A stretch of DNA of 64,000 nt from an uncultured delta proteobacterium (GCA_963767925.1 CAVYGB010000008.1:864001-928000); one strand, 5' to 3'. Counted from the first letter of the stretch, positions 8,456-23,311 are shown. Numbers and translations: made by a program. The notes: generated by a model from the letters alone, not told the origin.

Positions 8456-9223
8456 ATGCCATGGCTCACGCTGTCTCTTCGTCGCCGCCTGGTCACCGGG
8501 TTCGGACCTGGGCGCTTTCCCGCCTTGGTGTGTCTCGCGCTGCTGTGCCCGGTTCACGCGTGTGCAGGGCCGGCAGAGCTGGCGGCGCCGAAGGGGACGG
8601 AGACGTCGGCAAAGACGCCGGTGAGTCCGCCCACCACGAACCCGGAAAAGGCCCGACAGCTGGTAGAAGCGATCATCAAGGTCAGCCAGCTACCGCGGTT
8701 GGACCGGGCGAAAGCCGCCGAGATCCTCGGTACCCGGCTGGGTGCCCAGAGGAACGCCACCGAGTACCGCATGGAATGGTCCCTCGAGCCCACGCCGCTG
8801 ATCGCGGAGGGGACCGCCGTGGGAGGCCGCCGCACGGGCTGGACGCTCGTGGAGATCGTGCCTCACCCCTCTCTCGATCTGGCCTTCGAGGACCTCGTGC
8901 CCCACCTGCTCGACGCGAGCTACACGTTGGACGCGCGAAGAGTCCACCTCGTCCACGACTCGGTGGCCACGAGCATCACGCGCATCAGACACGTGTTCCG
9001 GATCGAAGGCGGCGAATTGACCATCGAAGTACCGACCACGGTGCCGCCCGAGACCCCCGACCAGGAATCGAAAGCCATGGGCGAAGGCTGGGATGCAGCG
9101 AAAGGCAAAAGCGCCAGCCGGAGTCAGGTGATGACCGTCTACTTCAACAACGAGCTCGGCAGAAGCTGGCGAAACCCGCGCGCGCTCCGGCAGTTTCGGG
9201 AGCCTCGGAAGGCACCCAACTGA
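8456..9223 (+). CDS. Exported/lipoprotein partner of the HExxH protein (putative immunity), copy 1
   Basis: Hydrophobic N-terminus with Cys; paralog of 21588-22337 (LAFEDL, GELTIE, AKGKSA). Confidence 0.7.
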   Translation: MPWLTLSLRRRLVTGFGPGRFPALVCLALLCPVHACAGPAELAAPKGTETSAKTPVSPPTTNPEKARQLVEAIIKVSQLPRLDRAKAAEILGTRLGAQRNATEYRMEWSLEPTPLIAEGTAVGGRRTGWTLVEIVPHPSLDLAFEDLVPHLLDASYTLDARRVHLVHDSVATSITRIRHVFRIEGGELTIEVPTTVPPETPDQESKAMGEGWDAAKGKSASRSQVMTVYFNNELGRSWRNPRALRQFREPRKAPN

Positions 9224-9227
9224 CCGG

Positions 9228-10130
9228 TTACGGGTTGGAGCCTGAGTTGGCCTGGCGGTCGTCCCACTCTTTGCTGAGCTGCTGAGCAGCGAACTGCTGC
9301 TTGGTGATGTAGGTGCCATCCGGGTTGATTCCGGCGGGCTCGCGCGACATGACCTCGGTCATCTCGGCTTTGGCCTGCGCTTCGGAGATCTCGCCACTCT
9401 TGTACCGCTCGTAGATGGCGATGTATTCGTCGTCGAATTTCCCCCGGATGCCGACGTCCGGCCCGTCCTCGGTCGCGCCGTCGGTGTACATGATCTCGTC
9501 GCGGGCGCGGGCGTTCTCGAAGGCGGCCGCACCCTCGTGCTCCATCAGCGGCTGCACGTTCTTCGAGACGTATTCGCTCTTGGTGTCGTAGTCCACCCGC
9601 TCAGGGAAGGGCGTGGCTGCATGACCGATCTCGTGGGCCAGCAGAGAGGCGAGGTCGTGGCCGCCCTTGGCCAGGTCCTGCTCGTCGATGTAGATCTTCT
9701 TCTCGTTCGGGTCGGCTTCCGATCCGCTGCCGTACGGGACGATCTTGATCTCCCAGTTGTTGGCTTTTGCCTCGGCCCACTGCTGTCGCAGGGTCGGGCT
9801 GCGGTTGATGACGTCATCAATCTTTGCGCCCAGACCTGTCTTGACCGGCGGCGGCTCCGCGCTGGCCGGGGGTGCTGGCGGCGGAGCTTCGACCTCCGGG
9901 GTGGTCGGCGTCTGGGACGTGGGGTTCGCCGGCTGTGGGTTTCCACCACCACCGCCGCCGCCCCCGAAGTAGGGGTGGTTCGTGGCGGGTGGGTCCACGC
10001 CGTCGACGTGCCAGATCGAGTCCGGGTCCGGCGCCTCGAGTGGCGCCTGCTCGATCACTTCTATGGAGACGAAGCTGCCATCTACCGGGAGTGGGGTGCC
10101 TTGACCAGTGACGGAGTTGATACCTGACAT
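9228..10130 (-). CDS. Putative zinc metallopeptidase effector, copy 1
   Basis: LLAHEIGHA plus downstream EG; low-complexity Pro/Gly N-terminus; no signal peptide. Confidence 0.72.
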   Translation of the reverse strand: MSGINSVTGQGTPLPVDGSFVSIEVIEQAPLEAPDPDSIWHVDGVDPPATNHPYFGGGGGGGGNPQPANPTSQTPTTPEVEAPPPAPPASAEPPPVKTGLGAKIDDVINRSPTLRQQWAEAKANNWEIKIVPYGSGSEADPNEKKIYIDEQDLAKGGHDLASLLAHEIGHAATPFPERVDYDTKSEYVSKNVQPLMEHEGAAAFENARARDEIMYTDGATEDGPDVGIRGKFDDEYIAIYERYKSGEISEAQAKAEMTEVMSREPAGINPDGTYITKQQFAAQQLSKEWDDRQANSGSNP

Positions 10131-10166
10131 GCGAAGTTCTCCTGGAAATTAACCACCTGTACAGAG

Positions 10167-10192
10167 TTGTCGGCGCGCGTTTGCAGTGTTGC
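10167..10192 (-). promoter_or_regulatory. GCAAC-N14-CCGACAA promoter-like motif
   Basis: Shared with 12628-12655 and 23285-23311 at the same distance from the ATG. Confidence 0.65.
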
Positions 10193-10429
10193 CAAAATTC
10201 GTCTCGGCTGCGTGAGCGTTCATGGTTGGATCGACGAAGGTGCGGGTTCGTCGACCGCAGCCGGGCGAGTTTCGGCGGGACGCGTCAGAGTCCGTGGGGC
10301 AACTTTCCTTCCTTCTAACGCGATGATGGCGGAACTGCACGGGTCGATGGCCGCGACGTCAGCACGCTGGGCCCCGGCGCTGTACTGGCTCCTGGCCGGC
10401 AAGCCCAGCGGCTCTCGGGCCCGCGACCC

Positions 10430-11308
10430 TCAGTTGTCGGCGCTGGCGGCGCAGCGGAAGCCGGCGTCGGACACCACGTAGGGCTTCGTGGGGTTGTTGC
10501 GGTTGTAGATGCGGGAAAAGAACTCGTCGTCGCGCCAACCGCCGCCCTTGATGACGTGGCCGCGGGCGCCGGGGCACCTCCTCTGGCCGGGGCAGGGGCC
10601 GCGTGGGTCGCGGCCAGCGCCGCCTTTCTTCGATTCCGCGGAGATATACCAGTCGCTGACCCACTCGGGGACATTGCCCGTGAGGTCGCAGAGCCCTTCG
10701 GCGGAGTTGCCCTTGGGGCGGCTGCAAACTGGGCGGGTGAAGGGCCTCGCGGCCGGCCGATCGGCGGCGCAGGGGTCGGGATTCTCATCCGTGATCGTGA
10801 CGGCCTGCTGGCAACCGGGAGTAGCGGGATTGAAGCCCCAGGGGAACACGCGGCCGTCGGCGATTGGACCAAGGGCCGCCCGCTCCCACTCTGCCTCGGT
10901 TGGAAGGCGCATCCCCACCCAGCGGCAATAGGCCTCGGCCTGCCCCCAGAGCACGCCGGTCACCGGGTGCTGGTCGCGTGCGGGGAGCCGCGAATTCACA
11001 TCGCCAGCCGGATTTGCTGCGATCTCCGTGCAGGCCCCCGCGGCCACGCATCGCTGGTAGGCCGCCACGGTAACCTCGGTGCGGTCGATGCGGAATGGAT
11101 CCAGACAGACCCGCCGGGCGGGCCCGGACAGGCCCTTCCGACAGCCGAGCTTCAACCCGCACCCCACCACGATACAGCCCCCCGGAATGGGCACCATCTC
11201 CGCCCCAGTGGGTTTCACTTCCGACGCTGGCTGCGCTGCTCGCGCGGGCGCGGTCGCGAGCTGTGCCGCAACGGCCACACCTGCCAGCCAGCCGCGGTTG
11301 CTCGGCAT
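10430..11308 (-). CDS. FGE-sulfatase (SUMF1-like) domain protein with signal peptide
   Basis: IDRTEVT, RLPTEAEWERAA, FPWG, DLTGNVPEW, KGGGW, GFRCA; TGATG coupling to upstream gene. Confidence 0.9.
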   Translation of the reverse strand: MPSNRGWLAGVAVAAQLATAPARAAQPASEVKPTGAEMVPIPGGCIVVGCGLKLGCRKGLSGPARRVCLDPFRIDRTEVTVAAYQRCVAAGACTEIAANPAGDVNSRLPARDQHPVTGVLWGQAEAYCRWVGMRLPTEAEWERAALGPIADGRVFPWGFNPATPGCQQAVTITDENPDPCAADRPAARPFTRPVCSRPKGNSAEGLCDLTGNVPEWVSDWYISAESKKGGAGRDPRGPCPGQRRCPGARGHVIKGGGWRDDEFFSRIYNRNNPTKPYVVSDAGFRCAASADN

Positions 11309-12591
11309 CAGCGATATAGCTCCGGGTGGCGCAGGCGAAGGACCTCGTCGCGGCGTTGTTCCAGAGCCGGGCGAGCGGCAGCAGGCAGGTCAGGGGAGGC
11401 GAGGGCGTTCTGCAGGTCCTGGTAGTAGCGATCCAGCTGGGGATCGCGTGCGCCCGCAGCCAGCGTGCGCCGGCCGTCCTGGTATTCGGCCCAGACCCCT
11501 TGGCTGGCCCGCAGCGCGTTCTCGGCGTCGACCCACGTGACGCTCGGGAACTTCTGTTCGCCGTCGGCGACGTTCCAGGATGCCGCGTTCTTCCCAACTG
11601 GGTCCACCGCGCTGGGGTCGTCGCCGTCGGTGCGGCTGGCCCAGGTGCGCAGGTGGGCAGGGGCGCCGGACTCGGCTAGCGGGCTTGTGTGGCTGTAGGC
11701 CCAGAAGCTCTTCAAGTTGGGGAAGTCCTGCCGGAACTGGTCGAGCTCGGTGGGCTTGGCGGAGTAGCAGGACGACATCGCCAGGTGCTCGATCTTGCCG
11801 GCTCCCTCAGGAAAGATCCTGGCGATGTCCCGGATCGTCTGGTGTTCGATCCAGCCCGAGCCGCCGTCGCCGCTGACCGAGCGGCCACTGCCGTGGCCGG
11901 AGATGACCAGTCGGTTGGCCGCGAGGTCGCCGGTGCCCACCCGATGCAGCGCCAACGCGAGCTGGGCGAGCTCGTCCCGCGTGTTCACTTCGGCCCGCCC
12001 GAGTTGGTCGACCAGGGCGTCGGCGCGCGAGGCCGGGACCTTGTCGGGGCCGGCGACCAGGGCGTCACGGAAAGCCTTGCGGCCGACGTCGGTGCCGAGG
12101 TCGAAGCGGCGGCCATCGTAGTCGACCCTGCCTTCCGAGGCGTAGGCCTTGATGGCGTGCACGCCGCCGGTTCCGGCCGGCGTCTCCGACCGCAGCGCCT
12201 GCACCTCCCGATCCGACGCCGGCCGCATCCCGAGGTGGACGATCCCCTGGGACTGCGCGGCCAGGCGCCGGCTGGCCACCTCTTCCTTGAGCTTTTCGTA
12301 GGCCGCGCCGGCCATGGTGGGGGCAGCTGCCGGGGCCTCACTCTGCCTGTGAGCGAACGACTGCGACGATCCGTTCGAGTCGACCTGGTCCAGCAGGTCG
12401 AACAGGGCGCCCATCTCTCGGGCTCCTCGGATCTGCGCGTCCGGGCCGGCGACCTTCTGCAGGTCGGCCGGGTCCAGCCCGGCATCCAACAGCTTCTTTT
12501 GCAGGTCCGGCGGCAGATCGTTGATGTTGAGAGAGCCGCCGTCGGCCCCGAGCTCCCGGATGAACTGCCCGCGGTTGATGGTGTTCGACAT
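11308..12591 (-). CDS. Putative caspase-like (clan CD) cysteine peptidase effector
   Basis: LVISGHG and HLAMSSC motifs ~40 aa apart; no signal peptide. Confidence 0.55.
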   Translation of the reverse strand: MSNTINRGQFIRELGADGGSLNINDLPPDLQKKLLDAGLDPADLQKVAGPDAQIRGAREMGALFDLLDQVDSNGSSQSFAHRQSEAPAAAPTMAGAAYEKLKEEVASRRLAAQSQGIVHLGMRPASDREVQALRSETPAGTGGVHAIKAYASEGRVDYDGRRFDLGTDVGRKAFRDALVAGPDKVPASRADALVDQLGRAEVNTRDELAQLALALHRVGTGDLAANRLVISGHGSGRSVSGDGGSGWIEHQTIRDIARIFPEGAGKIEHLAMSSCYSAKPTELDQFRQDFPNLKSFWAYSHTSPLAESGAPAHLRTWASRTDGDDPSAVDPVGKNAASWNVADGEQKFPSVTWVDAENALRASQGVWAEYQDGRRTLAAGARDPQLDRYYQDLQNALASPDLPAAARPALEQRRDEVLRLRHPELYR

Positions 12592-12627
12592 GCCCCTAAT
12601 CCTTCCGCGATTGCCACCGCTGGTCCT

Positions 12628-12655
12628 TTGTCGGACCCGGACCCGCGCCGGTTGC
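12628..12655 (-). promoter_or_regulatory. GCAAC-N16-CCGACAA promoter-like motif
   Basis: CCGA begins 43 nt before ATG 12591. Confidence 0.6.
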
Positions 12656-12756
12656 TTGTCAGCCTATCACGCGGTGCAGGGTCCCCAGCACCCGTTCGGT
12701 TTGCGGACACGAGCGCTCCGAGGCGAGACCCCCAGTCGCGGGCGGCATGAGCGTTC

Positions 12757-12778
12757 GATCCCCCACTTGATCCCCCAC
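12757..12778 (+). repeat. Paired GATCCCCCAC repeats, putative integrase arm sites
   Basis: Same 10-mer with the same 12-bp period at 2716-2737; single copy at 12998. Confidence 0.7.
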
Positions 12779-12871
12779 TCGTGCGTGACGGAGCGTGACG
12801 CTCCCTGACCTCTTGTGACGGTAAGTCCCCGTCACGACACGAGTTCCTGCTGGATTTCAGGGGGCTACAAT

Positions 12872-12929
12872 AGATTCAGGTTCTGGTGATCGAAAGATTG
12901 TGGGAGTTCGATTCTCCCCGACCGCACCA
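12872..12929 (+). tRNA. 3' half of tRNA-Leu(CAG) with CCA, att core
   Basis: Identical to 2428-2483 then CA; 5' half absent. Confidence 0.88.
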
Positions 12930-12957
12930 CAGAGATCAGCTAGTTAGAGCTGGTCTC

Positions 12958-13122
12958 TCAGCGCGCCGTGGGGGAAGGAGAGGGTGCCCCCCCGCCTGAT
13001 CCCCCACTTGGGGGGTCTGCCAGGGCCACGAGCTGCGCGATCCTCCCCACCGCCGCCAGCTTCTCCTCCCGCCCGACGTGGCTGTAGTGCTCGGTCATCG
13101 CCTCGGTCACGTGCCCGGTCAT
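12958..13122 (-). pseudogene. 3' remnant of a second copy of the integrase
   Basis: Near-identical to 2676-2852 (MTGHVTEAMTEHYSH...). Confidence 0.9.
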
Positions 13123-13459
13123 GAGATCGAAGAGGAAGGCTCTCATCGCGAGCTACGTGGCCATTTGGGGTCCGACGGAGTTCGGCGGTGGTCTCGCCCA
13201 GTGGCGTGTACCACAGGCAGCTGGACGTCTCCCAGCAGATCGCCGTACGCGAAGCGGTCAAGCAGGCGCCCATGCTCGCCAGCCGACGTCGGTGTCCGCG
13301 AAGACGGGAGTGCGGTCGGACCCGACGTCGGGCTTGCGACCCGTAAAGCCAGGCGCACCGCGGGCGGCGCACCGTTTCCGCCTCAAATTGACCGGGCCGG
13401 CGGGCTCCGTGTACCGTCCTCGGCCTGATCCAGCGCGCGTGTGCGCCCCAGGGAGAGCC

Positions 13460-14125
13460 GTGAACAGCCTGATCGCCGACGTGTTGCCCGCTGGCTGTGT
13501 GCTGGCGGTCTGCGAGCCTTCGGTCGCCGGCCTCGTGTCGGAGCTGCCGCCGGAGGAAAAGTCCTACATCGCCGGGGCGGCGTTGAAGCGCCAGAGGGAA
13601 TTTGCCGCCGGACGATTTGCTGCCCGTCGCTGCCTGGTCCAGCTGGGGCTGCCGCCGGTCTCCTTGCCGGTCGGCAAGGGCCGTGAGCCCTGCTGGCCTC
13701 CCCACGTCACAGGGAGCATTTTCCACACGACCGGATATTGCGTGGCAGTCGCCGCCCGGCTCTCGTCCATCGCGAGCATCGGAGTAGACGCCGAAGCTGA
13801 GGTCCACCTGGAGACCGCCCTCTGGGACCTGGTTCTGACGGAAAGAGAGCGGGCATGGGTCGAGTCGCTGTCGCCAGAGATCCGCGGGGTAGGGGCCAAG
13901 GTCGTCTTCTCTGCCAAGGAGAGCGTCTACAAGTGCCAGTACCCGATCACGCGGACCTTCCTCGAGTTTCGCGAAGTGGAGGTCGAATGTGAGCCGACTG
14001 CGGCCCGACTCGTCTCGGGACGCTTTGTCGCGCACCTCCCGATCGTGCCGTGCCCGCCGCTGCGCGGATTCTGGAGATCCAGCGAGCAACGGGTAGACAC
14101 CGTGACCTGGTTGCCACTTGCTTGA
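13460..14125 (+). CDS. 4'-phosphopantetheinyl transferase (EntD-like)
   Basis: KRQREFAAGR, PCWP..VTGSIFH, IGVDAE, FSAKESVYK. Confidence 0.9.
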   Translation: MNSLIADVLPAGCVLAVCEPSVAGLVSELPPEEKSYIAGAALKRQREFAAGRFAARRCLVQLGLPPVSLPVGKGREPCWPPHVTGSIFHTTGYCVAVAARLSSIASIGVDAEAEVHLETALWDLVLTERERAWVESLSPEIRGVGAKVVFSAKESVYKCQYPITRTFLEFREVEVECEPTAARLVSGRFVAHLPIVPCPPLRGFWRSSEQRVDTVTWLPLA

Positions 14126-14619
14126 CGGGTCCGAGGTCCGCGGACGGACGGGCGGCCGCGACGGCCTGGACCCTGGGATCCCCGTTCGAACGTTCCCGGC
14201 GAGCTGCCCGGGATCAAGACCCGGAACCCCTGCATGACCGCCGTCGGCCGCCCGCCTACCGCTTAAGCTGGAGCGGGGCTCAAGACCTGCAACACGCCGC
14301 CCACGCTGATGGTCTTCAAGAAGCCGGTGCGCCTGGCTTCGTAGAGCGAGCGCCTGTCGGCAACCCGACCACCGCCGGCAGGGACAGCGCCAGCACACCC
14401 GCACGAACAGCAAGGTCTGCAGCAACCGCCGCGGGGACCGCGACCGGATCATCACCGCAGCGCGAGCAGGATGGCGGCGCCGGTCGCCACGCCCATCGCC
14501 GCCATGGCATCCAGTTTCGCGCACCCGGCGACGTTCAGCAGGGTCGGCGACCCACATGCCCTGAGGAAGGAGCCCGAAGGATGACGACGACCTTTTCGCG
14601 CGCGATCATCGTGGCAGCG

Positions 14620-15352
14620 GCCGGGTGCCTGCTGGGCCCGGCCTGCGGAGACGGCGGCGACCCGCCCTTGGCCACTGGCAACCAGCCGCGGTCGAGGGTG
14701 CCGGACCTGGTCACCCGCCTGGGGCCGAGGTCGATCCGGCGCAGCGGGGAGGAGGTGGCCATCTTCCAGCGCCCGGGACGGCCGCTGGTGCTGTTCTTCC
14801 ACACCCACGGCGCCGACGCCGACCGCAGGGTCGTCGACCGGGGGGGTGCGCTTCGAGGTCGATCCGGTCCGCCAGATCGTGCTGCAGCGACGGGAGGGGA
14901 CCGACGACGAGGTGTTCGCCCCCAACCCCACCGAGGCGCTGGGACGTTTCCTCGTCGATCTGCACGTGCAGCTGCTGATCCCCGAGCCGGTGGGCCTGTA
15001 CGCGACGGGGGTGGTGGGCGTCGGGCTGCTGGTCTTGCTGGTGACCGAGGTGGTGGGTGCACCGGCGGTTCTTCCGGGAGGCTTTTCAGGTCCGCTGGCC
15101 AGCTGGCGCCGTCGGCTGCTGCGCGACCTGCACACCGTGACCGGGGTGGCTGTGCCTTACGGGGCCGTGCTGGCCTTCACCGGCGCCTTCTTCAGCTTCG
15201 GAGACGCCGTCGTGCTGCCCGCGCTGGCCTCGCTCAGGCTCACGTCCACCCGGGCCCCCGTCTCGCCCAAGTGGGCCACACCCAGAAAGCCCACCTCGGC
15301 CTCCGGCGCCCGCCGGGAAGCCGTGCGGCCAGGCAGTCTGGCAACAGGCTGA
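14620..15352 (+). pseudogene. Fragmented PepSY-associated TM-helix protein
   Basis: FLVDLHVQLL and DLHTVTGV..P...LAFTGAF segments in broken frames. Confidence 0.55.
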
Positions 15353-15666
15353 ACGTCGGCTGCGCCGCCGCACAGTAGTACCGCGCCACGCGCATCCCCA
15401 CCGGCTCCACCGGCCCGTAGGTCAATGACGGCGGAGCCCGCAATCCGCCGTCCCGTGCACCGGGCATCGGTCGAGCCTTGCTGCTGCCAGTTCCTCCCGC
15501 TTAACGCGGACTCGAAGCGAACGTGTTCGCATGGTCACCTGCGCGGGTTGCGCGTCGGTATTTGGCAAGAATCCATGGCGTCAACAACCGGGTCAGGTAA
15601 AATTGACTCGCCGTTGAGACCCGCTGGATTCGCAACTTTCCGGGATCTCGTCGCGCCTGAGGCCGC

Positions 15667-16764
15667 ATGAACATCATCTTCGACGGTTGCTTCTGGGGCG
15701 GTCGGGAACGTGGGGTCGCGACCTCGACCCGCCGGCTGTTCGAGTCGCTGGTCGACCTCGGCTCGAGCCACCTGGTGAGAGCCCTGGTTCCACAGCGCTC
15801 CGTTGTGTCCGCCTCGGCTCACCAGGTCCTGACCATCGGCCCCGAACCTCTGGCGGGATTGAAGCGGATGTTCTGGCAGCAGCTCGTGCTCCCCGGCCTG
15901 CTCGCGCGCGAACGGGCGGATCTGCTGGTCGCGACCTGCTACACGGCCCCCGCCATCCCGGCGGTCCCCTATGTGCTTGTCGTTCACGACCTGCTGGCCC
16001 GCAACCGTCCGACGTTGTGCCGGCCACTCGCGCGTCTGAATGCGCGCGTGCTGCTCCGATGGAGCGTTCGCCGGGCGACCCTGGTGTTCGTCCCCTCGGA
16101 GGTCATCAAGGCCGAGCTGCTCGACTACACCGGCGCGCCGTCCGAAAGGGTGCAGGTTCTGCCCTGGGCGGTTGACCGCGACCTGCGGCCAGTGCCGGGC
16201 GAGGCGGCGCGGGCGCAGGTTCGCCAGCGGTTCGCGCTGGCCAACGACTTCGTCCTCTTCGTGGGCGCCATCGAGCCCAAGAAGAATCTGGAACCCCTCA
16301 TCCGGGCCTGCAATCGGATCGCGGTCCAGCTCGTGCTCGTCGGACCCACCACGCCAGAGGGACGCCACCTTGAGCCGCTGATCCGCCGCTGCCCGGTGGC
16401 GCGCCACCTCGGCTACGTGTCGGCGGACCAACTCAGCGCCCTTTATGCCAGTGCCGCCGCGGTGGTTCTGCCGTCCACGGCGGAGGGGTATGGGATGCCC
16501 GCGGTCGAGGCCATGTTTTGCGGTGCACCCGTCGTGGCCTCGGACATCCCGACGCTCAAGGAGGTCTGCGCCGGGGCAGCGCTGCATTTTGCCAGCCAGG
16601 ACGACGACGGCCTGACGAGGGCGCTCGAGCGCATCCTCGGAGATCGCCCGCTGCGCACCAGTCTGATCGCTGCCGGTCGCGCGCGAGCCCGGGCGCTGAC
16701 CTGGCCAGGGGTTGCCCGGACGTTCATGCAACACATCGAATCGGTTTCGCGACCCACGGAATGA
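15667..16764 (+). CDS. Family 4 glycosyltransferase
   Basis: VVHDL, FVGAIEPKKN, EGYGMPAVEAM, VVASDIP. Confidence 0.93.
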   Translation: MNIIFDGCFWGGRERGVATSTRRLFESLVDLGSSHLVRALVPQRSVVSASAHQVLTIGPEPLAGLKRMFWQQLVLPGLLARERADLLVATCYTAPAIPAVPYVLVVHDLLARNRPTLCRPLARLNARVLLRWSVRRATLVFVPSEVIKAELLDYTGAPSERVQVLPWAVDRDLRPVPGEAARAQVRQRFALANDFVLFVGAIEPKKNLEPLIRACNRIAVQLVLVGPTTPEGRHLEPLIRRCPVARHLGYVSADQLSALYASAAAVVLPSTAEGYGMPAVEAMFCGAPVVASDIPTLKEVCAGAALHFASQDDDGLTRALERILGDRPLRTSLIAAGRARARALTWPGVARTFMQHIESVSRPTE

Positions 16765-16788
16765 GGCGGTCGGGGGACGCCCGGGGCG

Positions 16789-17345
16789 TCAACGGAAGGC
16801 ATAGCCGGTCGTGACGATCAGGCGGGTGAGCGAACGCGATCCCGCTGCCGTCGCCTCCGCCCGGATTCCAGCGTCCCACCTGCCGAGTGGCACATCCAGG
16901 CCGGTCGTCAGAATGGCTCGCGCCGAGCCGCCCGCCATGGGCACCGCGCCCGATGCGCCAGCCGTGAATCGCAGCGGGCCCACCGGCGGAAACGTGCTGC
17001 TGATGCCCCCGGTGATCTCGGATGAGGTCATCAGATTCACGACGGCACCCGGCGCGGATCCGTGACCTGCGTGGTGGCTCGACGGCCCGAGGGCGCGTCC
17101 ATTCCCGAGCTCGCGTCCATATCCCAGCTTCGCAGCCACACCGAGATGGCGCCAGGACATGCTGGTCCAGATACCTGCCATCAGCATGGGGTGTCCCATC
17201 CCGAGCCGCTTGCCGGCATCGCCGAGTGGCACGGACCCCGAGAGCACGATACCGCCGGATGGCGCCCCGCTTCGTCGCCCGAACGCCACGATCGCGACCG
17301 ACACGGCGGGATCACCGGGTCCGCACACTGTCGCACGCTCCGACT
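16789..17345 (-). pseudogene. C-terminal fragment of a probable outer-membrane beta-barrel protein
   Basis: Alternating beta-strand pattern ending GYAFR; no signal peptide; abuts a truncated gene. Confidence 0.35.
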
Positions 17346-17353
17346 GCAGGTGA

Positions 17354-18709
17354 TACGCCGGCTTCCAGCCGAATCGATTCGGAAACCGGGTCACCATTCG
17401 CGGTGTGACGCTGCCCTGTCTGGTGAATCCAGAGCACCATCAGCTGCACGCCGCTGCCACGTATTATACGTCTCCCTTCGAATCGGCGATGATCATGGCC
17501 CTCGATCCAGGCGGGGGGCGCTTTTACCGGGGCCGAGGCCACATGATTCATCCCGTCCATGTGCCCGGTGTGCGGCTCACCGCCAACGTGGCTTACGCGT
17601 CCGTGGCTACCCGATTGTTCGGGTCCGGCATCGTCGGGGCGGGGAAGGTCATGGGACTGGCTCCTTTCGGGGGCGTTTCCCCCGGGGAGCCGGTGGACTA
17701 CAACCGGATGACCACCATCGAGGAGCTCTATGCCCTGGCGGCCCGCGAGCCGGTCATCCTGTACGAGAAGAGTCGGCCCCTGAATGCGACCTTGGCCTTC
17801 CACGTGCAGCGCGGACTGGAGATCCAGCTTACCGAGTCGTTGCAGGCTCTCTTCCGGATGTCGGCCCGCCTGGGCACCGAGCCCAGCCTGTGCTTGAGCG
17901 GCGGCACGGCCTTGAACTCCGCCGCGAACCAGGTCGCCTTCGCCGCTTCGGGATTCGAACGGCTGCACCTCTACCCAGCTTGCGGCGACGACGGAACGGC
18001 AGTGGGAGCGGCGCTCTGGTACTGGCATCACGTCACGGGGCGACCGCGCCGTGCGTTCTGCAACCGCGAGCTCATGTATTCGGTGAGGACGTATGAGGAC
18101 AGGATCGACCAGAGCCTGGCGGCGCAGGGCGACCGCCTCAACGTGGAGCGTGTGGACGACTACCTTGACAGGGCCGCGGAGTTGATCGCGCAAGGGAAGA
18201 TCATCGGCTGGTTTCAAGGTGCGAGCGAGGTTGGTCCACGGGCCCTGGGAAACCGAAGCATTCTGGCTGACCCTCGCCGGAGCGAGATGAAGGACGCCTT
18301 GAATTCCCGGGTGAAGTTCCGGGAGGGGTTCAGGCCATTCGCCCCTTCCGTGCTCAAGGAGCGTGGCCAGGAGTGGTTCGGCCTGGAGGACAGCCCCTTC
18401 ATGCTGCGGGTCGCTCCGGTGCTGAAGAGGGGAATCCCTGCCGTGACCCACGTGGACGGGACAGCCCGCGTTCAGACGGTGGACCAGCGAGACAACCCCG
18501 CCTTTTACGATTTGATAGAGAGGTTCGAAGCCAAGACCGGGGTCCCGTTGATCCTCAACACCTCTTTCAACATCCGTGGCGAGCCGATCGTCGAGACGCC
18601 CGAACACGCGATCAACGCGCTCTTGGAGAGCGACCTCGACCATCTGGTCTTCCAGCGGCGAATCGTGAGAAGGGCCGATTCGGTCTGGCCGAGTGTCGCC
18701 GCCGCATGA
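17354..18709 (+). CDS. Carbamoyltransferase (NodU/CmcH family), N-terminally truncated
   Basis: EHHQLH very near the start, GKVMGLAP, SGGTALN, GPRALGNRS, FREGFRPFAP, HVDGTARVQTV, LNTSFN. Confidence 0.88.
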   Translation, partial: YAGFQPNRFGNRVTIRGVTLPCLVNPEHHQLHAAATYYTSPFESAMIMALDPGGGRFYRGRGHMIHPVHVPGVRLTANVAYASVATRLFGSGIVGAGKVMGLAPFGGVSPGEPVDYNRMTTIEELYALAAREPVILYEKSRPLNATLAFHVQRGLEIQLTESLQALFRMSARLGTEPSLCLSGGTALNSAANQVAFAASGFERLHLYPACGDDGTAVGAALWYWHHVTGRPRRAFCNRELMYSVRTYEDRIDQSLAAQGDRLNVERVDDYLDRAAELIAQGKIIGWFQGASEVGPRALGNRSILADPRRSEMKDALNSRVKFREGFRPFAPSVLKERGQEWFGLEDSPFMLRVAPVLKRGIPAVTHVDGTARVQTVDQRDNPAFYDLIERFEAKTGVPLILNTSFNIRGEPIVETPEHAINALLESDLDHLVFQRRIVRRADSVWPSVAAA

Positions 18710-18889
18710 GGAGGAGGGCTCTATCGCTCGAGGCTGGCACCGAGGTGTCGCGTCGACGCATGAAACGGCAGGAGCCGGCGTGGTGCCGAAGATCTGTCTC
18801 TTCCTGAGGCTCGGCGACCCGGCCATACCCGAGCTGCCGGGTCTGGGGGATCTGATCAGTCGGAACTTCGGCATGCGCCTCATCCGCCG

Positions 18890-19313
18890 ACGCTGGCCAG
18901 ATCTCCAGAACCGCCGCCAGCATCGACTCGTCGAATCCAGCCGGCACAACGATCCGCGCACCACCAACCTCGACCTGCAGCGGCGCTGGCGTCAGCGTCG
19001 TCCGGCTGCCTGCGCCAGAGGAAGCCCGCTTCGGGACTCGTACTACGCGCAGAAGGCGCATCCGGGTTGCCGCCACCTTCTTCGGCGCACGGCTAGCCGG
19101 ACGCCGACGTGTCTTGCCAAGCCGCCACCCCCAGTGCCGAAGAAGTCCTGCAGAAAATCCCTTCCCTGCGCAGAAGTCTTCGGACTTCTGGCCGCTCGCC
19201 CGCGATGCCTCTATCCGCGCTGCCCATTCGGTTGCTGTCGCCATGGCATCCAGGATGCCGGGCACCGCTCAACTTGAGTAGAACGGGGTCCGTGCACCGG
19301 GTACCCCGCTCAC
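18890..19313 (-). mobile_element. IS66-like remnant: left end plus TnpA-like ORF (ATG 19244)
   Basis: W..RIEA.RASGQ....FC...G...W and IVVPAGFD..L..VL; GTGAGCG end at 19313. Confidence 0.65.
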
Positions 19314-19460
19314 GTGGCTGACTTCCTCAAGGGCGCGGGATCTTTCCAGCGGAGCCTGGCCGCGTACGAGCGATTGGCCCGCGATCGTGCGAGCCATCCA
19401 TCCACCGAGCCCCCGCCGCCCAAGCGGCGCGGGGATCCCGACGACGAAGACGGAGGAGCG

Positions 19461-20304
19461 CATGGCTAGCGAAGAAATGGATCGCCTGTACGAGCACCTG
19501 CGCAGGATCGGGCTGCGCCACGCCGCCCAGAATCTGGACGAGCACATTCGACAGGCCGCCGCGCTCAAGCTCGGGCACCTCGCGTTCATTGCACGCATCG
19601 CCGAGGCGGAGGTGTTGGCACGCAAGGAGACGGGCACACAAAAACGGATCAGCCAGGCCGACTTCCCCGAGATTTGTCGGCTGGAAGACTACGATTTCAA
19701 GAAGCAGCCGAGCCTCGACCGCAAGCAGGTGCTCGACCTCGCCGAGCTGGGCTTTGTCGACCGCCGTCAGGCCGTTCTGTGGATCGGCCCGAGCGGCGTG
19801 GGCAAGACCCATCTGGCGGTGAGCCTCGGTGTGCGCGCGTGTCAGGCTGGCTACCGCGTGCGCTTCTGCCGCGCCTACGAGCTGTTGACCCGCCTCTACG
19901 CCTCGCTCGCCGACGACACGCTCGACCAGATCCTCGACGAGATGTGCAAGCCGGATCTATTGATTGTGGACGAGCTAGGAAACAGTCCCCGCAAGCGCGA
20001 GCACGACTTCGCCGGCGTCTTCTTCGAGCTCGTCGCCCGCCGATACCGTCGCGGATCGATCATCCTCGCCACCAACCTCGGCTTCGAGGAGTGGCCACAG
20101 GCGCTCGGCAGTCCCTCCCAGGTCACACCCGCCCTCGACCGCCTCATCGAGGGCGCGCACATCTTCACCTTCCCCAAAGACGCCAAGAGCTTCCGCGTCG
20201 ATCGAGACTCGTCCCCCGGCCCACTGCCGCCGAAGCGAGGTCGACGTCCCTCCGGCCATCGCGGCCACCGAGACGCCGACCGGAAGCGCCCGGAGCAATG
20301 GTGA
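19461..20304 (+). CDS. istB: IS21 ATP-binding helper
   Basis: LEDYDFKKQP, GPSGVGKT, LLIVDELG, ATN, LDRL. Confidence 0.92.
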
Positions 20305-20531
20305 GCAGTCGTCCAGCCGCGCCTCCACCACGCATCGTCACCCTCGTGCTGCCCGCGCTCGGCCCGCGCGAGGCCGGGGCGCTCATCGACTGCCTCGAGC
20401 AGCTCCAGGGTGAGCTGTGGCAGGTCTACCGCGAGGCGATCCTCCAGCCCGAGCCCGATCCCGACGTCGCTGAGGATCCCGCCTCGAACAGCGATCCCCC
20501 GTCGTACGATCCGGACGACTCGCTCTTCTGA
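20298..20531 (+). CDS. Small acidic hypothetical protein inside the IS
   Basis: Overlaps istB stop; GALIDCLEQLQGELWQVY...DDSLF. Confidence 0.45.
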   Translation: MVSSRPAAPPPRIVTLVLPALGPREAGALIDCLEQLQGELWQVYREAILQPEPDPDVAEDPASNSDPPSYDPDDSLF

Positions 20532-20848
20532 TCGACCGCCGAGCGGGCGCCGTCTGTCTCGGGATCCGCCTCGAGCCGCGCCCCGGGAGGGGGGGCACGC
20601 CTCCCCGGCCGACCCTCCGCCATCCGCGTGCCCCCCTTGAGATCGCCCTGGCGCCCTCGCGGCCCCACTACAGGCTTTCGCCTCGCCACGGACCTACCAG
20701 GCAACTTCCGGCCCAATCAGGTCGCGCCGGGCACCCAAAGCGATTCCCTGTCGGGCCCGAAATCGGCGTCACCGCGCGATCCGCCTCTCCGTCACCCGAG
20801 GCGATTTCGGCCGCCGTGCCGGGGGAGGATTTCACTGCCACCAGCAGT

Positions 20849-21302
20849 CGGTCGCTGCGACCGGAGGCCCGGGAGGTGACGAAGGAGCCGAGGCACTTCG
20901 GGAAACGCAGCCCGTATGACGGCGGGAACTCGGGCGGGTGGGGTTTTGGCGCGATGGCCGCACGAAAGTTTGAGTACGGCGCAAAGGAGAACGTTGGCCT
21001 CCGGGGCTTGCTGAGCCTCGCGCTGCTTGAAGTCATGCGCAGGCAGCGGGATCGTTTCAGCACCGCCGAGATAGGTGACGTTGCTTGATCAGCGAGCGCC
21101 GGATTGAACCTCGCGTCGCACGTGCACAGAGCACTTGTCCCCGCCCAACCCCGCGAGACAGCAAGCGTTCTCGATGGCTGGGGACAAACTCTGTAACAGC
21201 CTCTCTCACAACCTAGGTAACTACTCACGATTCGCCTCACCCGCCCAGATTCAGGTGCTGGTGATCGAAAGATTGTGGGAGTTCGATTCTCCCCGACCGC
21301 AC
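20849..21302 (+). repeat. Island right-end repeat, family B copy 2
   Basis: Near-identical to 2028-2483. Confidence 0.9.
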
Positions 21303-21303
21303 C
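21245..21303 (+). tRNA. 3' half of tRNA-Leu(CAG), att core with one mismatch
   Basis: CCAGATTCAGGTGCTGG...CCCGACCGCACC; 5' half absent. Confidence 0.85.
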
Positions 21304-21587
21304 CAGATACCCCTGAAATTCCCAGCTCTTCTTGCGCTTCCGACGTTCTGGATCTCGTAGGGGTTCTTGGCGGGGACAAGCGGGGACAAACCGGCGCCCG
21401 CCTTTTCGGCGTTTTCCCCGGTATTTCCGCGCACGCGCCAGAATGGTGTTCTGGTGCGTTTTCTGACGCGAACTATGGGTTGGTCGCCCACGGCAGCGCC
21501 CCGACTTCCATAGTTTGTGTGGCCGTTCCGACGAGCGGGTTTCGATCTTCCCTCCGGTCGCCAGGCTTTACTTCGGCCGCACGAGGG

Positions 21588-22337
21588 TCATTTCGACCGA
21601 CGCTGGTGACGCTCCCGGTACTCTCGGAGGGTCGGTGTTTTCTGCCAATCCTGACTGAGCTCGGTGCCGACGTAGATCTTGCTGATGAGGCCGCGCGGGG
21701 CGCTCTTTCCCTTCGCCACCTCGTATGCAATCTCCGTGGCCTTGCGGTCGCGGTCCGGGGTGTCCTTCGCAAGGGTCACCGGGATCTCGATGGTTAGCTC
21801 TCCGGCGGAAACCCTGAACCGATATAGAGACCTGTGCATCTGCTTGGCCAGGCTGTCCTCGTGGACATGGACCCAGACGTTCTCCAGCGCGAACGGGAGA
21901 TCGAGCAGCTGGGGCGCCAGGTCTTCGAATGCGAGATAGAGCGAAGGCTGGGGGTCGAACCAAAGGGTTTGCCATACCTGGTCCTTGCCGGCCCGTATGG
22001 TAGCTCCCTCGGAAATGGCTTCCGTCGGCGCCAGCGGCCATTCGACGCGGTATTCGTGCACCTGGTCCTTCGGACCCAGGCCGGAACCGAGCAATGCGGC
22101 TGCCTTTTCGAAATCCAGCGGCGACAGACGCGAAACCTTCATTAGCTGTTGGATCAGCTTCTCGACCTTCGCTTCGGGCCTCGGGACGAGCGCTCCGTTC
22201 GGCTCCTTCGCCGGGGATGCTCCAGCGGCCGACGCCGCAAGGCCTGCGCAGCAACAGACGAGCAGCCCAAGCCGCTCCGCCTGGGATCGTCGGAAAGACG
22301 ATGCTCGGGATGTGGCGCCAAACACTTGGAGACTCAC
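21588..22337 (-). CDS. Exported partner (putative immunity), copy 2
   Basis: Signal-like N-terminus; paralog of 8456-9223; GTGA overlap with upstream gene. Confidence 0.72.
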   Translation of the reverse strand: MSLQVFGATSRASSFRRSQAERLGLLVCCCAGLAASAAGASPAKEPNGALVPRPEAKVEKLIQQLMKVSRLSPLDFEKAAALLGSGLGPKDQVHEYRVEWPLAPTEAISEGATIRAGKDQVWQTLWFDPQPSLYLAFEDLAPQLLDLPFALENVWVHVHEDSLAKQMHRSLYRFRVSAGELTIEIPVTLAKDTPDRDRKATEIAYEVAKGKSAPRGLISKIYVGTELSQDWQKTPTLREYRERHQRRSK

Positions 22338-23248
22338 TGCTTGTGCCTTTCGTCGAAGTCCTCGCGGTGCTTCTCCAGAAAGACCTCCTCGGTGGTCTTG
22401 TAGCTCCCATCGGCATTGCGGCCTCTCGGCTCCTGACCAGCCCAGAAGGCCATCTCTGCAATGGCCTCGTCGACGGTAAGAATGTCACCGCTTTTCCATC
22501 GCTCGTAGATCTTGATGTATTCGTCGTCGAACCCTCCGCGAATCCCGATGTCCGGGCCCATGCCAGGACTTGGGGAATTCCTGATCTCGTCTCTTGCCCT
22601 GGCGTTGGTGAAGGCAGCCCCGGCTTCTCCCCAAATCTCCGTTCGGGTGGCGTTCGTTGCGTAGCCTTCGCGATCACCGATGTCTACGGGCGCGCGACCT
22701 GGCCCTCTGACGGCGTGGTCTATCTCGTGGCTGGCGAGCGAGGAGAGCTCGGCCGGAGTCAGGACATGCCCATCGACCAAGGACTTCGGATTGATATAGA
22801 TGACTTTGTCTGGCGGCCCGTGATGGGTCTCATTCGGTCCGTTCCGAAACTCGATGTGATAGCCCTTTTCCTTGGCCTTCGCCCACAGCTCGCGCATGGT
22901 GGGACTCTTGTTCAGGATCTCGTCGACCTCCTTGCCCAGGCCGGACACGATGGGGGGCGCGAGGCGCGGTTTCTCGGGCTTCGCCGGTGCGGCAACCGGA
23001 ACGGGCGGCCGTTCCGGTTGCGGACCGGACGGCCCACCTCCACCAACTATCACGGTCTCTCCGCCCAAGGGCGCCACCGCCAACCGTTGCGGGGGAGGCG
23101 GCTCCTCGATGATATCGATGCTCTGGGGTGTGCCCGGGCCGAGGGGATCAGTTGGGGCGTCGGGGTCCACGTCCGGGCCGCCGGCGGTTCCGACATCGGC
23201 TGAAGGAGTGCTCACGCCTCGACCGGTGATGCTGTTGAAGCTCGTCAT
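22334..23248 (-). CDS. Putative zinc metallopeptidase effector, copy 2
   Basis: SHEIDHA, NARARDEI, GPDIGIRG; ATG 23248 after AGGAG. Confidence 0.72.
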   Translation of the reverse strand: MTSFNSITGRGVSTPSADVGTAGGPDVDPDAPTDPLGPGTPQSIDIIEEPPPPQRLAVAPLGGETVIVGGGGPSGPQPERPPVPVAAPAKPEKPRLAPPIVSGLGKEVDEILNKSPTMRELWAKAKEKGYHIEFRNGPNETHHGPPDKVIYINPKSLVDGHVLTPAELSSLASHEIDHAVRGPGRAPVDIGDREGYATNATRTEIWGEAGAAFTNARARDEIRNSPSPGMGPDIGIRGGFDDEYIKIYERWKSGDILTVDEAIAEMAFWAGQEPRGRNADGSYKTTEEVFLEKHREDFDERHKQ

Positions 23249-23284
23249 CAGGCTCTCCTGCTCAGGTCTGGTGGGACGTACGCT

Positions 23285-23311
23285 GTTTCGGTTGGAGCTT
23301 GCGTGAGTTGC
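23285..23311 (-). promoter_or_regulatory. GCAAC-N15-CCGAAAC promoter-like motif
   Basis: CCGA begins 43 nt before ATG 23248. Confidence 0.6.

What the first reader, a model, noticed from the sequence alone, without database searches (positions are those of the whole stretch)
8456..23311. Three effector-partner modules share a promoter motif at identical spacing: candidate undescribed secreted-protease regulon
Seen: genes starting at 10130, 12591 and 23248 (all minus strand, in two islands, two unrelated protein families) each have GCAAC-N14/16/15-CCGA(C/A)A upstream. The first C of CCGA lies exactly 43 nt before the ATG in all three. All three proteins lack a Sec signal, begin with short Ser/Thr/Asn-rich leaders (MSGINSVTG, MSNTINRG, MTSFNSITG), carry a protease-like motif, and sit beside a gene for an exported protein. 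Known: CCGA(T/C)AA resembles the sigma-28/FliA -10 box, and type III substrates often have unstructured polar N-termini. Inference: a FliA-like-sigma-controlled set of toxins/effectors with periplasmic immunity proteins, spread on tRNA-Leu islands. No secretion apparatus or sigma gene is in the window.
Basis: partly seen in the sequence, partly recalled or inferred. Interest (0 to 1): 0.85.

Follow-up and report, generated by a model that had tools for sequence, protein, structure and literature searches.

The report
Shared alternative-sigma promoter before toxin genes
Three signal-less peptidase-toxin genes in a myxobacterium-like genome carry a promoter-like sequence that also sits in front of their relatives in many other genomes, which points to an undescribed regulon of antibacterial effectors run by a flagellar-type or similar alternative sigma factor.

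Summary
GCAAC-N14/16/15-CCGA(C/A)A occurs three times in the window against 0.19 expected. Each site has the first C of CCGA 43 nt before the ATG.

It is not a post-hoc artefact. The same box, cGCAAC(t)-N15/16-(g)CCGA(TAA), precedes 16 homologues of the middle gene in other genomes of 44-72% GC. That makes 17 of 40 family genes against 11 of 512 other genes, and two of those 11 are the window's other two genes. In the best-kept copies the -10 is GCCGATAA, the sigma-28 consensus. The -35 is not TAAA.

In 14 of the 16 outside sites the ATG follows after 13-15 nt, which implies leaderless mRNA. The 43-nt spacing is therefore local to this genome.

- P0001 and P0003 are zincin-like toxin domains. 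The same domain is elsewhere fused to VgrG, PAAR, Rhs, WXG100 and XVIPCD. Each is paired with a homologous lipoprotein-like partner.
- P0002 has a caspase-like Cys/His fold with a folded N-terminus. An exported FGE-domain protein follows it.
- All lie beside tRNA-Leu att repeats.

The sigma factor and the export route remain unknown. A type III link is untested.

The parts
10168..10192 (-). Promoter-like box 1: GCAAC-N14-CCGACA, 43 nt before the ATG of P0001. This is the weakest of the three.
   Evidence: A weight matrix trained only on sites from other genomes ranks it 13th over both strands of the window.
9228..10130 (-). P0001, 300 aa: a zincin-like metallopeptidase toxin domain (residues 95-296, HEIGH 166-170, Glu199) behind a disordered N-terminal part that starts MSGINSVTGQG.
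8456..9223 (+). P0005, 255 aa: lipoprotein-like exported protein, convergent with P0001 (the stop codons lie 4 nt apart). Candidate immunity protein.
12629..12655 (-). Promoter-like box 2: GCAAC-N16-CCGACA, 43 nt before the ATG of P0002.
   Evidence: Rank 3 in the window with the outside-trained matrix.
11308..12591 (-). P0002, 427 aa: a folded EF-hand-like N-terminal domain plus an alpha/beta domain with invariant His233 and Cys275 (caspase-like, clan CD-type order).
10430..11308 (-). P0004, 292 aa: exported FGE-sulfatase-domain protein. Its start overlaps the stop of P0002. Candidate partner or immunity protein.
   Evidence: The same arrangement is seen in L004 and L005.
23286..23311 (-). 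Promoter-like box 3: cGCAACt-N15-CCGAAA, 43 nt before the ATG of P0003.
   Evidence: Rank 1 in the window with the outside-trained matrix.
22334..23248 (-). P0003, 304 aa: paralogue of P0001 (35% identity), with HEIDH and N-terminus MTSFNSITGRG.
21588..22337 (-). P0075, 249 aa: homologue of P0005 (42% identity). Its start overlaps the stop of P0003. Candidate immunity protein.
2412..2483 (+). Copy 1 of a direct repeat that is the 3' part of a tRNA-Leu(CAG) gene (att-like). An integrase gene lies next to it at 2676-3896 (-).
12856..12927 (+). Copy 2 of the tRNA-Leu 3' repeat, 200 nt upstream of box 2. A repeated remnant of the integrase end lies at 12940-13123.
21231..21302 (+). Copy 3 of the tRNA-Leu 3' repeat, just left of the P0075/P0003 pair.

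Best explanation
The three boxes are promoters of one alternative-sigma class, and they drive toxin genes.

Shown:
- A bipartite element, (gAAAt..)cGCAAC(t)-N15/16-(g)CCGA(TAA), lies directly before genes of the P0002 family in many Myxococcota-type genomes and before all three window genes.
- Its best copies have the sigma-28-type -10, GCCGATAA.
- In most genomes the ATG follows so closely (13-15 nt) that the mRNA would be leaderless. In this genome a 5' leader of about 30 nt with a Shine-Dalgarno sequence follows instead.
- The controlled genes encode peptidase-type domains without Sec signals. One kind is a zincin-like toxin domain used elsewhere as the warhead of T6SS, T7SS and T4SS effectors. 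The other is a caspase-like Cys/His domain that is often fused to peptidoglycan-binding domains.
- Each gene sits beside a gene for an exported protein.

Inferred:
- A dedicated sigma factor switches on a scattered set of periplasm-acting antibacterial effectors. It is either a FliA/WhiG-like factor with a changed -35 preference or an ECF factor.
- The producer is protected by exported immunity proteins.
- The modules travel on islands integrated at tRNA-Leu.

The export route is not known.
For: Chance excluded within the window: 3 matches against 0.19 expected, and 0 of 100 shuffles reach 3.

Conservation outside the window: the search for related loci with the P0002 alignment returned 37 loci. 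GCAAC-N15/16-(C/T)CGA followed by the in-frame start is present at 16 of them, in loci of 44-72% GC.

Enrichment: the script found the box at 16 of 40 family genes. It found the box at 11 of 512 other called genes, Fisher p = 1.8e-13. Two of those 11 are P0001 and P0003.

Independent scan: a weight matrix built only from the 16 outside sites ranks the P0003, P0002 and P0001 sites 1st, 3rd and 13th over both strands of the 64-kb window.

The upstream regions of the three genes do not otherwise align. No sigma-70-like promoter is found in 8000-24000.

-10 element: it reads GCCGATAA in L001, L002, L003 and L006, and TCCGATAA in L005. The flagellar consensus of -35 TAAA and -10 GCCGATAA is quoted from passages of PMC8325347.

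Toxin nature of P0001/P0003:
- 864 representatives match the family profile.
- I scanned 50 of the 150 listed, picked for having an N-terminal extension. They comprise 7 full VgrG plus 4 VgrG fragments, 5 Rhs, 6 PAAR or Tox-PAAR-like, 11 WXG100, 1 XVIPCD, and 16 others (2 annexin, 1 HATPase_c, 13 with no such domain). P0025 also carries XVIPCD.
- H166, E167, H170 and E199 are invariant.

Partners: P0005 and P0075 are 42% identical. FGE-domain genes overlap the stop of the P0002 homologue in the window, L004 and L005. Unrelated lipoprotein-like genes do so in L023, L027, L031, L033 and L034 (with a homologue in L035).

P0002: the model has pLDDT 92.5. The best PDB fold matches are C11, CHAT, legumain and caspase chains. 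Fusions to PG_binding_1 and eCIS_core occur in relatives.
Against: - No transcription data exist, and no sigma gene was seen in the window or recurring near the 37 loci.
- The -35 GCAAC is not the sigma-28 TAAA. In high-GC genomes, this window included, the TAA of the -10 is lost (CCGACAA, CCGAAAC).
- The P0001 site is weak: its spacer of 14 was not seen among the 16 outside sites, and it ranks 13th.
- 23 of 40 family genes lack the box, including all loci labelled Planctomycetota, Sericytochromatia, Saprospiraceae, Chloroflexia, Cyanobacteria and Bradymonadales.
Conservation for that family therefore rests on the two paralogues in this window.
- Fold matches are weak: E = 5e-3 for P0002 and E > 0.1 for P0001.
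- Toxicity and immunity are inferred from architecture and synteny only.
Confidence: 0.65

Rival explanations
1. The element is the promoter of an ECF sigma factor, not of a sigma-28/FliA-WhiG relative.
For: The -35 contains AAC, the hallmark of ECF promoters (recalled). The distance from AAC to CGA is 16-17 nt in all 16 outside sites, which have spacers of 15 or 16. That distance is the usual ECF geometry (recalled). In high-GC genomes only CCGA of the -10 is kept. Myxobacteria carry dozens of ECF sigma factors and no flagella (recalled).
Against: Five loci of very different GC content keep the whole 7-8 nt (G)CCGATAA. That is longer than usual ECF -10 elements and identical to the sigma-28 -10 (PMC8325347). 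ECF genes commonly sit beside their targets and auto-regulate (recalled), yet no sigma gene recurs near the loci.
Confidence: 0.3
2. The genes are ordinary T6SS (or Rhs/outer-membrane-exchange-type) kin-discrimination toxin-immunity cassettes on mobile elements. The box would then be simply their promoter, with no dedicated new export route.
For: The P0001 domain is most often fused to VgrG, PAAR and Rhs. Passages of the review PMC10433427 state that myxobacterial T6SS effector-immunity loci are scattered and sit on mobile elements. The modules here sit on integrase- and IS-rich islands bounded by tRNA-Leu repeats.
Against: No VgrG, Hcp, PAAR or adaptor gene lies beside any of the three genes, and none was seen among the neighbours scanned in the 37 loci; the remaining singleton neighbours were not scanned. 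No known T6SS marker was found in P0001-P0003 by Pfam or NCBIfam. The conserved extreme N-terminal peptide M-x-x-x-N-[ST]-[IV]-[TS]-G-x-G matches no family in those scans.
Confidence: 0.3
3. The three matches are chance plus post-hoc pattern choice, and the 43-nt spacing is coincidence.
For: The pattern was designed after looking at the three regions. The 43-nt spacing is not kept in homologues, which have 13-15, 28 or 39 nt. The P0001 site scores only about the 99th percentile of control upstream regions.
Against. A matrix built without any window sequence recovers the sites, and the box is 30-fold enriched before family genes.
Confidence: 0.04
4. The proteins act on the producer's own cell wall, for example in spore formation or envelope remodelling, and are not weapons. 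The neighbours would be co-factors rather than immunity proteins.
For: PG_binding_1 fusions occur in the P0002 family. The P0002 family is conserved at 42-46% identity over full length across distant lineages, which is unlike fast-evolving polymorphic toxins. FGE-domain proteins are not a recognised immunity family (recalled).
Against: The proteins have no Sec or Tat signal although their presumed substrate is outside the cytoplasm. The P0001 domain is a warhead in four kinds of effector architecture. The P0002 domain is fused to eCIS_core. The downstream exported genes change when the effector diverges and stay when it is close, as in L034 and L035.
Confidence: 0.1

Closest known systems
Sigma-28 (FliA/WhiG) promoters: -35 TAAA, -10 GCCGATAA (consensus quoted in PMC8325347, passages read)
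   Same: The -10 is identical (GCCGATAA) in L001, L002, L003 and L006 and one base off in L005. The overall geometry is similar: GCAACTTT-N11/12-GCCGATAA against TAAAGTTT-N11-GCCGATAA, the latter recalled. The regulon is scattered over the genome.
   Different: The -35 core is GCAAC, not TAAA. The hosts are mostly Myxococcota, which have no flagella (recalled). The targets are toxin-like peptidases rather than motility, pilus or sporulation genes. In high-GC genomes the TAA is lost.
HrpL regulon of Pseudomonas syringae and Erwinia: an ECF sigma factor and the hrp box before scattered type III effector genes (recalled, not tested here)
   Same: One alternative sigma box marks dispersed, horizontally mobile effector genes that lack Sec signals. 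The -35 contains AAC, and the -10 begins with CC.
   Different: The -10 here is CCGA(TAA), not CCAC. No type III apparatus or chaperone genes are in view. Many of the mRNAs here would be leaderless.
Polymorphic toxin-immunity systems: evolved VgrG, PAAR and Rhs (T6SS), LXG/WXG100 (T7SS), and XVIPCD effectors of Xanthomonadales T4SS
   Same: The P0001/P0003 catalytic domain is the same domain found at the C-terminus of such proteins. The adjacent exported partner is like a periplasmic immunity lipoprotein.
   Different: Here the domain has none of those delivery modules. It carries only an N-terminal part of about 90 residues, modelled as disordered, with a conserved 10-residue tip.
Pfam DUF6782 (PF20573, putative metallopeptidase family)
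   Same: There are weak matches over the HExxH region in many relatives. Three reach the cut-off of 27 bits: P0161, P0173 and P0107. An Atlas cluster with 31% DUF6782 members scores 0.86.
   Different: P0001 and P0003 themselves give no Pfam or NCBIfam match at E <= 0.1.
Clan CD cysteine peptidases (C11 clostripain-like, CHAT, legumain, caspases)
   Same: P0002 has His after one beta strand (LVISGHG) and Cys after the next (LAMSSC). Both are invariant in 44 sequences. The top PDB fold matches are 6nag, 8tl0, 6n9j and 7fql.
   Different: E-values are only 5e-3 to 5e-2 and TM-scores 0.22-0.34. There is no sequence match to any Pfam, NCBIfam or PDB entry. The protein has an extra N-terminal EF-hand-like domain.

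Membership tests
Sigma-28 (FliA/WhiG)-dependent promoter | -10 element GCCGATAA | tested here: inconclusive
   A perfect 8 of 8 in L001, L002, L003 and L006, and 7 of 8 in L005. In the window the three sites read GCCGACAA, TCCGACAA and ACCGAAAC, which is 7, 6 and 5 of 8.
Sigma-28 (FliA/WhiG)-dependent promoter | -35 element TAAA about 15 nt upstream of the -10 | tested here: not met
   GCAAC stands at that place in all 19 sites. Only L003 has CAAA.
Sigma-28 (FliA/WhiG)-dependent promoter | A FliA/WhiG-type sigma gene in the genome, and transcription starts that depend on it | not testable with these tools
   Only a 64-kb window and flanks of 10 kb or less are held. No sigma domain was found in the window.
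ECF-sigma promoter | AAC in the -35 and CGT-like -10 with a distance of 16-17 nt | tested here: inconclusive
   AAC is met, and the distance from AAC to CGA is 16-17 nt in the 16 outside sites. The -10 reads CGA, not CGT, and is conserved over 7-8 nt in five loci.
ECF-sigma promoter | Cognate sigma/anti-sigma genes next to the targets | tested here: not met
   No gene family other than four unrelated ones recurs in 3 or more of the 38 neighbourhoods. Singleton neighbours were not all scanned.
Polymorphic toxin-immunity module | The same toxin domain joined to different delivery domains in different proteins | tested here: met
   P0001 domain: VgrG, Rhs, PAAR, WXG100 and XVIPCD. P0002 domain: eCIS_core and PG_binding_1.
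Polymorphic toxin-immunity module | An adjacent gene that co-varies with the toxin | tested here: met
   P0005 with P0001 and P0075 with P0003. FGE genes in the window, L004 and L005, and the L034/L035 pair.
Polymorphic toxin-immunity module | Toxicity, and neutralisation by binding of the partner | not testable with these tools
   The complex-prediction job (P0001 residues 95-300 with P0005 residues 60-255) was never accepted.
Type III secretion substrate | Disordered polar N-terminus without a Sec signal | tested here: inconclusive
   P0001 residues 1-75 have pLDDT below 50. The N-terminus of P0002 is folded with pLDDT 86-94.
Type III secretion substrate | A type III apparatus, chaperone or co-regulated sct genes | not testable with these tools
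   None is present in the window, and the rest of the genome is not held.
Zincin metallopeptidase | HExxH plus a third zinc ligand, on a zincin fold | tested here: inconclusive
   H166, E167, H170 and E199 are invariant in 21 sequences. The fold matches are all metallopeptidases but weak: ArdC, selecase, M48 and aureolysin at E = 0.12-0.4.
tRNA-integrated genomic island | Direct repeats of a tRNA 3' end flanking the island, with an integrase next to one of them | tested here: met
   Three repeats at 83-93% identity, and an integrase at 2676-3896. No intact tRNA gene is in the window.

The most novel reading that the evidence does not exclude
The box marks the cargo regulon of a so far uncharacterised export route of Myxococcota. 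One candidate is the needle-less type III-like system that works with the Tad-like Kil pilus in prey lysis. Its effectors were still unknown in 2023-2025 reviews and papers (PMC10433427, PMC12428579, PMC12075869; passages read).

On this reading, a sigma-28-descended factor, kept from the flagellar ancestry of type III systems, would transcribe leaderless or short-leader mRNAs for signal-less lytic peptidases. Their conserved extreme N-termini would be the export signal.

Two weak leads fit this. Five relatives of the P0001 domain begin with a Flp/TadE-like prepilin N-terminus, judged by eye; Pfam Flp_Fap gives only E = 0.011. The language-model search places P0001 near a HopF2 type III effector cluster at 0.86, which is below the 0.9 level.
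Probability: 0.12. Interest if true: 0.9.

Novelty: new variant of a known kind. Interest (0 to 1): 0.66.

Why it matters
A short DNA box that reliably marks signal-less lytic or toxic enzymes across Myxococcota would give a genome-wide handle for finding effectors of predatory and competitive bacteria. It could find those with no recognisable delivery domain. It could also identify the sigma factor, and through it the conditions and the machine, that deploy them. The effectors of the myxobacterial contact-dependent killing and lysis apparatus are an open question in the papers read. The widespread leaderless geometry is also unusual for an effector regulon.

Tried and rejected
- Sigma-54 reading of box 1 (TGGCAA...GCA): the GG-to-GC spacing is wrong, judged by inspection.
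- Riboswitch or structured leader: the three 51-nt leaders fold worse than their shuffles, z = +0.8 to +1.4, and there are no Rfam hits.
- Homology of the upstream regions: MAFFT finds nothing beyond chance.
- The tRNA-Asp called by ARAGORN at 4716-4805 is not confirmed by Rfam and looks spurious.
- Sequence searches of P0001 and P0002 and their profiles against the PDB found nothing below E = 0.3.
- A conserved sigma or secretion gene near homologues was looked for and none found. The recurring neighbours are generic: kinase or FGE-domain proteins, response regulators or GGDEF proteins, and large Kelch/RCC1 proteins.
- Literature searches:
  - GCCGATAA with Myxococcus gave 3 papers, none on a myxobacterial promoter.
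  - M. xanthus with FliA and T3SS gave 8 papers, none relevant by title or abstract.
  - Myxococcota with sigma-28 gave 0.
  - M. xanthus with transcription start sites, leaderless and sigma gave 4, none relevant.
  - GCAAC with CCGATAA anywhere in the text gave 926 papers, and the 15 listed were unrelated.
  - Only the held library was searched; subscription papers and bioRxiv supplements were not.
- Complex prediction for P0001 with P0005 gave no verdict. The queue was full and the tool was then withdrawn.
Most P0001 and P0005 relatives come from metagenomes, so their upstream DNA stayed unchecked.

Full report
**1. The observation**

The pattern GCAACN{14,16}CCGAMA matches three times in the window: 10168-10192, 12629-12655 and 23286-23311, all on the minus strand. 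Shuffles give a mean of 0.19 matches, and none of 100 reaches three. Reading the sequence shows the first C of CCGA 43 nt before the ATG of each of three open frames:
- 9228-10130 (P0001)
- 11308-12591 (P0002)
- 22334-23248 (P0003)

All three have coding-type base composition, with GC3 of 0.74-0.88. The window is 68% G+C. It carries a close relative of the myxochelin receptor MxcH, so the source is probably a myxobacterium.

**2. Is the motif more than a post-hoc pattern?**

It returned 37 loci, all from MAGs. Six hold full-length homologues at 35-46% identity. The rest share only the C-terminal domain.

The same two boxes stand directly before the start codon in 16 of these loci. These are L001, L002, L005, L006, L011, L022, L023, L025, L027, L028, L030, L031, L032, L033, L034 and L037.
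- The consensus is (gAAAt..)cGCAAC(t)-N15 or 16-(g)CCGA.
- The -10 reads GCCGATAA in L001, L002 and L006 and TCCGATAA in L005. L003 has GCCGATAA behind CAAA.
- These loci range from 44% to 72% G+C.
- Their labels are Myxococcota, Myxococcales, Polyangiaceae, Labilithrix, 'Deltaproteobacteria', 'Proteobacteria' or unclassified.

In a uniform test over all 552 called genes of the loci and the first 30 kb of the window, the box followed by an in-frame start was found as follows:
- At 16 of 40 family genes.
- At 11 of 512 other genes, Fisher p = 1.8e-13.
- Two of those 11 are P0001 and P0003.

A weight matrix built only from the 16 outside sites ranks the P0003 site first, the P0002 site third and the P0001 site thirteenth over both strands of the whole window. 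The second-ranked hit, at +52554, lies 150-250 nt before an RND efflux operon and has an atypical spacer. The three upstream regions do not otherwise align.

The box is therefore a conserved cis-element. P0002 and P0003 carry good copies and P0001 a weaker one.

**3. Geometry**

In 14 of the 16 outside sites the ATG lies 13-15 nt after the first C of CCGA. This puts the expected transcription start at or next to the A of the ATG, so the mRNAs would be leaderless. L005 has 39 nt and L006 has 28 nt.

The 43 nt seen three times in the window is thus not a property of the element. It corresponds to a leader of about 30 nt with a Shine-Dalgarno sequence. These leaders are less structured than their shuffles, and no Rfam family matches.

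**4. Which sigma factor?**

The flagellar/WhiG consensus is -35 TAAA and -10 GCCGATAA (PMC8325347, passages read). The -10 here is identical in its best copies. The -35 is GCAAC, or GCAACTTT in L001 and L006.

The AAC-N16/17-CGA geometry also fits ECF-type promoters; that geometry is recalled, not tested. Two facts argue against the ECF reading:
- The long conserved -10.
- The absence of a linked sigma gene, in the window and recurring near the loci.

The loss of TAA in high-GC genomes argues for caution. I cannot decide between the two. My searches of the held library found no description of such a promoter in Myxococcota.

**5. The proteins**

P0001 and P0003:
- They are 35% identical and have no Pfam, NCBIfam or PDB sequence match.
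- The alignment of 21 relatives keeps H166, E167, H170 and E199.
- AlphaFold2 gives a confident domain at residues 95-296 and a disordered part at 1-90.
- Fold matches are weak but are all zinc metallopeptidases.
- A profile search of 1.84 billion representatives finds 864 relatives.
- I scanned 50 of the 150 listed, picked because they are longer on the N-terminal side. They comprise 7 whole VgrG proteins and 4 VgrG fragments, 5 Rhs proteins, 6 with PAAR or Tox-PAAR-like domains, 11 with WXG100, 1 with XVIPCD, 2 with annexin repeats and 1 with HATPase_c. The remaining 13 have no such domain.
- Among 16 further ones, 3 have PAAR and 1 has WXG100. P0025 also carries XVIPCD.
- Weak DUF6782 matches are frequent.

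This is the signature of a polymorphic-toxin warhead.

In the window's subfamily the delivery module is replaced by a proline/glycine-rich linker. Before it stands a conserved extreme N-terminus, M-x-x-x-N-[ST]-[IV]-[TS]-G-x-G.

P0002:
- It has 49 relatives with invariant His233 and Cys275.
- The model is of high confidence, pLDDT 92.5.
- Its best PDB matches are clan CD peptidases: C11, CHAT, legumain and caspase-4. E-values are 5e-3 or worse.
- Its first 110 residues form a folded helical domain with EF-hand-like loops; the EF-hand reading is by inspection.
- Relatives join the catalytic domain to PG_binding_1 or to eCIS_core. This suggests a cell-wall target.
- In the Labilithrix-type subfamily the domain follows 60-100 polar, probably disordered residues.

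**6. Partners**

- P0005 (8456-9223, +) and P0075 (21588-22337, -) are 42% identical. Both have lipoprotein-like N-termini, by inspection, and belong to a very small family of 5 other members.
- P0075 overlaps the stop of P0003. P0005 is convergent with P0001.
- P0004 overlaps the stop of P0002 and is an exported FGE-sulfatase-domain protein. The same pairing occurs in L004 and L005.
- In L023, L027, L031, L033 and L034 other genes with lipoprotein- or signal-like starts overlap the stop. The L034 gene has a homologue in the same place in L035.

This fits exported immunity proteins against periplasm-acting toxins.

**7. Setting**

Three direct repeats are the 3' part of a tRNA-Leu(CAG) gene, running from the anticodon stem to the acceptor end. 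They lie at 2412-2483, 12856-12927 and 21231-21302 and are 83-93% identical. The anticodon was read by inspection.

An integrase lies next to the first repeat, and a remnant of its end lies next to the second. The region up to about 30 kb is full of IS21 IstB fragments, transposases, a second integrase and toxin-antitoxin genes. No intact tRNA is found.

The P0005-P0001-P0004-P0002 block ends 200 nt from the second repeat. The P0075-P0003 pair begins 290 nt after the third.

**8. Export route**

Nothing in the window or the loci names it. The P0001 domain's usual carriers suggest T6SS, but no T6SS gene or marker is linked.

A type III-like route remains an attractive reading without evidence. 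The papers read say that the effectors of the myxobacterial needle-less T3SS* and Kil system are unknown (PMC12075869, PMC12428579, PMC10433427; passages read). One of them says that co-occurrence of Kil and T3SS* is restricted to Cystobacterineae. The box, in contrast, is common in Labilithrix and Polyangiaceae.

**9. Verdict**

The regulon idea is supported by cross-genome conservation. The toxin-immunity reading is supported by architecture and synteny. The FliA label is half right: the -10 fits and the -35 does not. The identical spacing and the type III inference are not supported.

I rate this a new variant of known kinds, namely alternative-sigma effector regulons and polymorphic toxins. 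It offers a concrete handle for discovering effectors in Myxococcota.

Noticed in passing
Relatives P0105, P0106, P0114, P0125 and P0126: Five relatives of the P0001 metallopeptidase domain begin with ...G-LST(V/I)EY followed by a hydrophobic stretch. By eye this looks like a Flp/TadE-type prepilin N-terminus, so they may be Tad pilin-toxin fusions. Pfam Flp_Fap and DUF4244 match only below their cut-offs (E = 0.011 and 0.0014).
   Followed up: partly
L028:229-642 (-), L014:7890-9197 (+) and L022:16938-18161 (+): Other genes carry the same box in leaderless geometry. One is a PD-(D/E)XK (PDDEXK_3) protein with the highest control score (21.9 bits). One is a protein with two PG_binding_1 domains, just upstream of the family gene in L014. 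One is a TreT-like glycosyltransferase with a TCGA variant of the box. They may be further regulon members.
   Followed up: partly
window 52527-52560 (+): The second-best match of the outside-trained matrix in the window is CCGCAACCC-N14-GCCGATCG. It lies 150-250 nt before the outer-membrane, HlyD and RND efflux operon at 52798-58584. The spacer is atypical, so it may be chance.
   Followed up: no
window 1-30000: The region is a mosaic of mobile DNA:
- IstB/IS21 genes or fragments at 3-650, 19387-20304, 25099-26040 and 27231-27479.
- Transposase genes at 26297-26788 and 29326-29781.
- Integrases at 2676-3896 and 27623-28846.
- Duplicated segments, 2028-2483 and 20849-21302.
- A PIN-domain gene (1294-1749), a UPF0175 gene (5480-5806) and a TacA-like/GNAT pair (30170-31126).
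   Followed up: partly
window 4716-4805 (+): ARAGORN calls a 90-nt tRNA-Asp here. Rfam finds no tRNA at its gathering score and the sequence looks atypical, so it is probably a false call.
   Followed up: partly
window 13121-20304: Between the two toxin islands lie a 4'-phosphopantetheinyl transferase, a PepSY-TM protein, a GT4 glycosyltransferase and a carbamoyltransferase that lacks part of its N-terminal domain (17405-18709). This looks like a small sugar-modification or biosynthetic cargo of the second island.
   Followed up: no
L016:1650-1736 and L008:9640-9680: Degenerate versions of the box occur before family genes in a Sericytochromatia MAG (GCAAG-N15-CATGATAA) and in a Myxococcales MAG (GAAAC-N15-GCGATAA). 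The element may therefore reach further than the strict pattern shows.
   Followed up: no
window 35519-37801 (-) and 44139-46601 (-): There are two TonB-dependent siderophore receptors, one FhuA/FoxA-like and one MxcH-like. The MxcH-like one scores 813 bits, under the 925 cut-off. A two-component system lies nearby. This is an ordinary iron-uptake neighbourhood.
   Followed up: no
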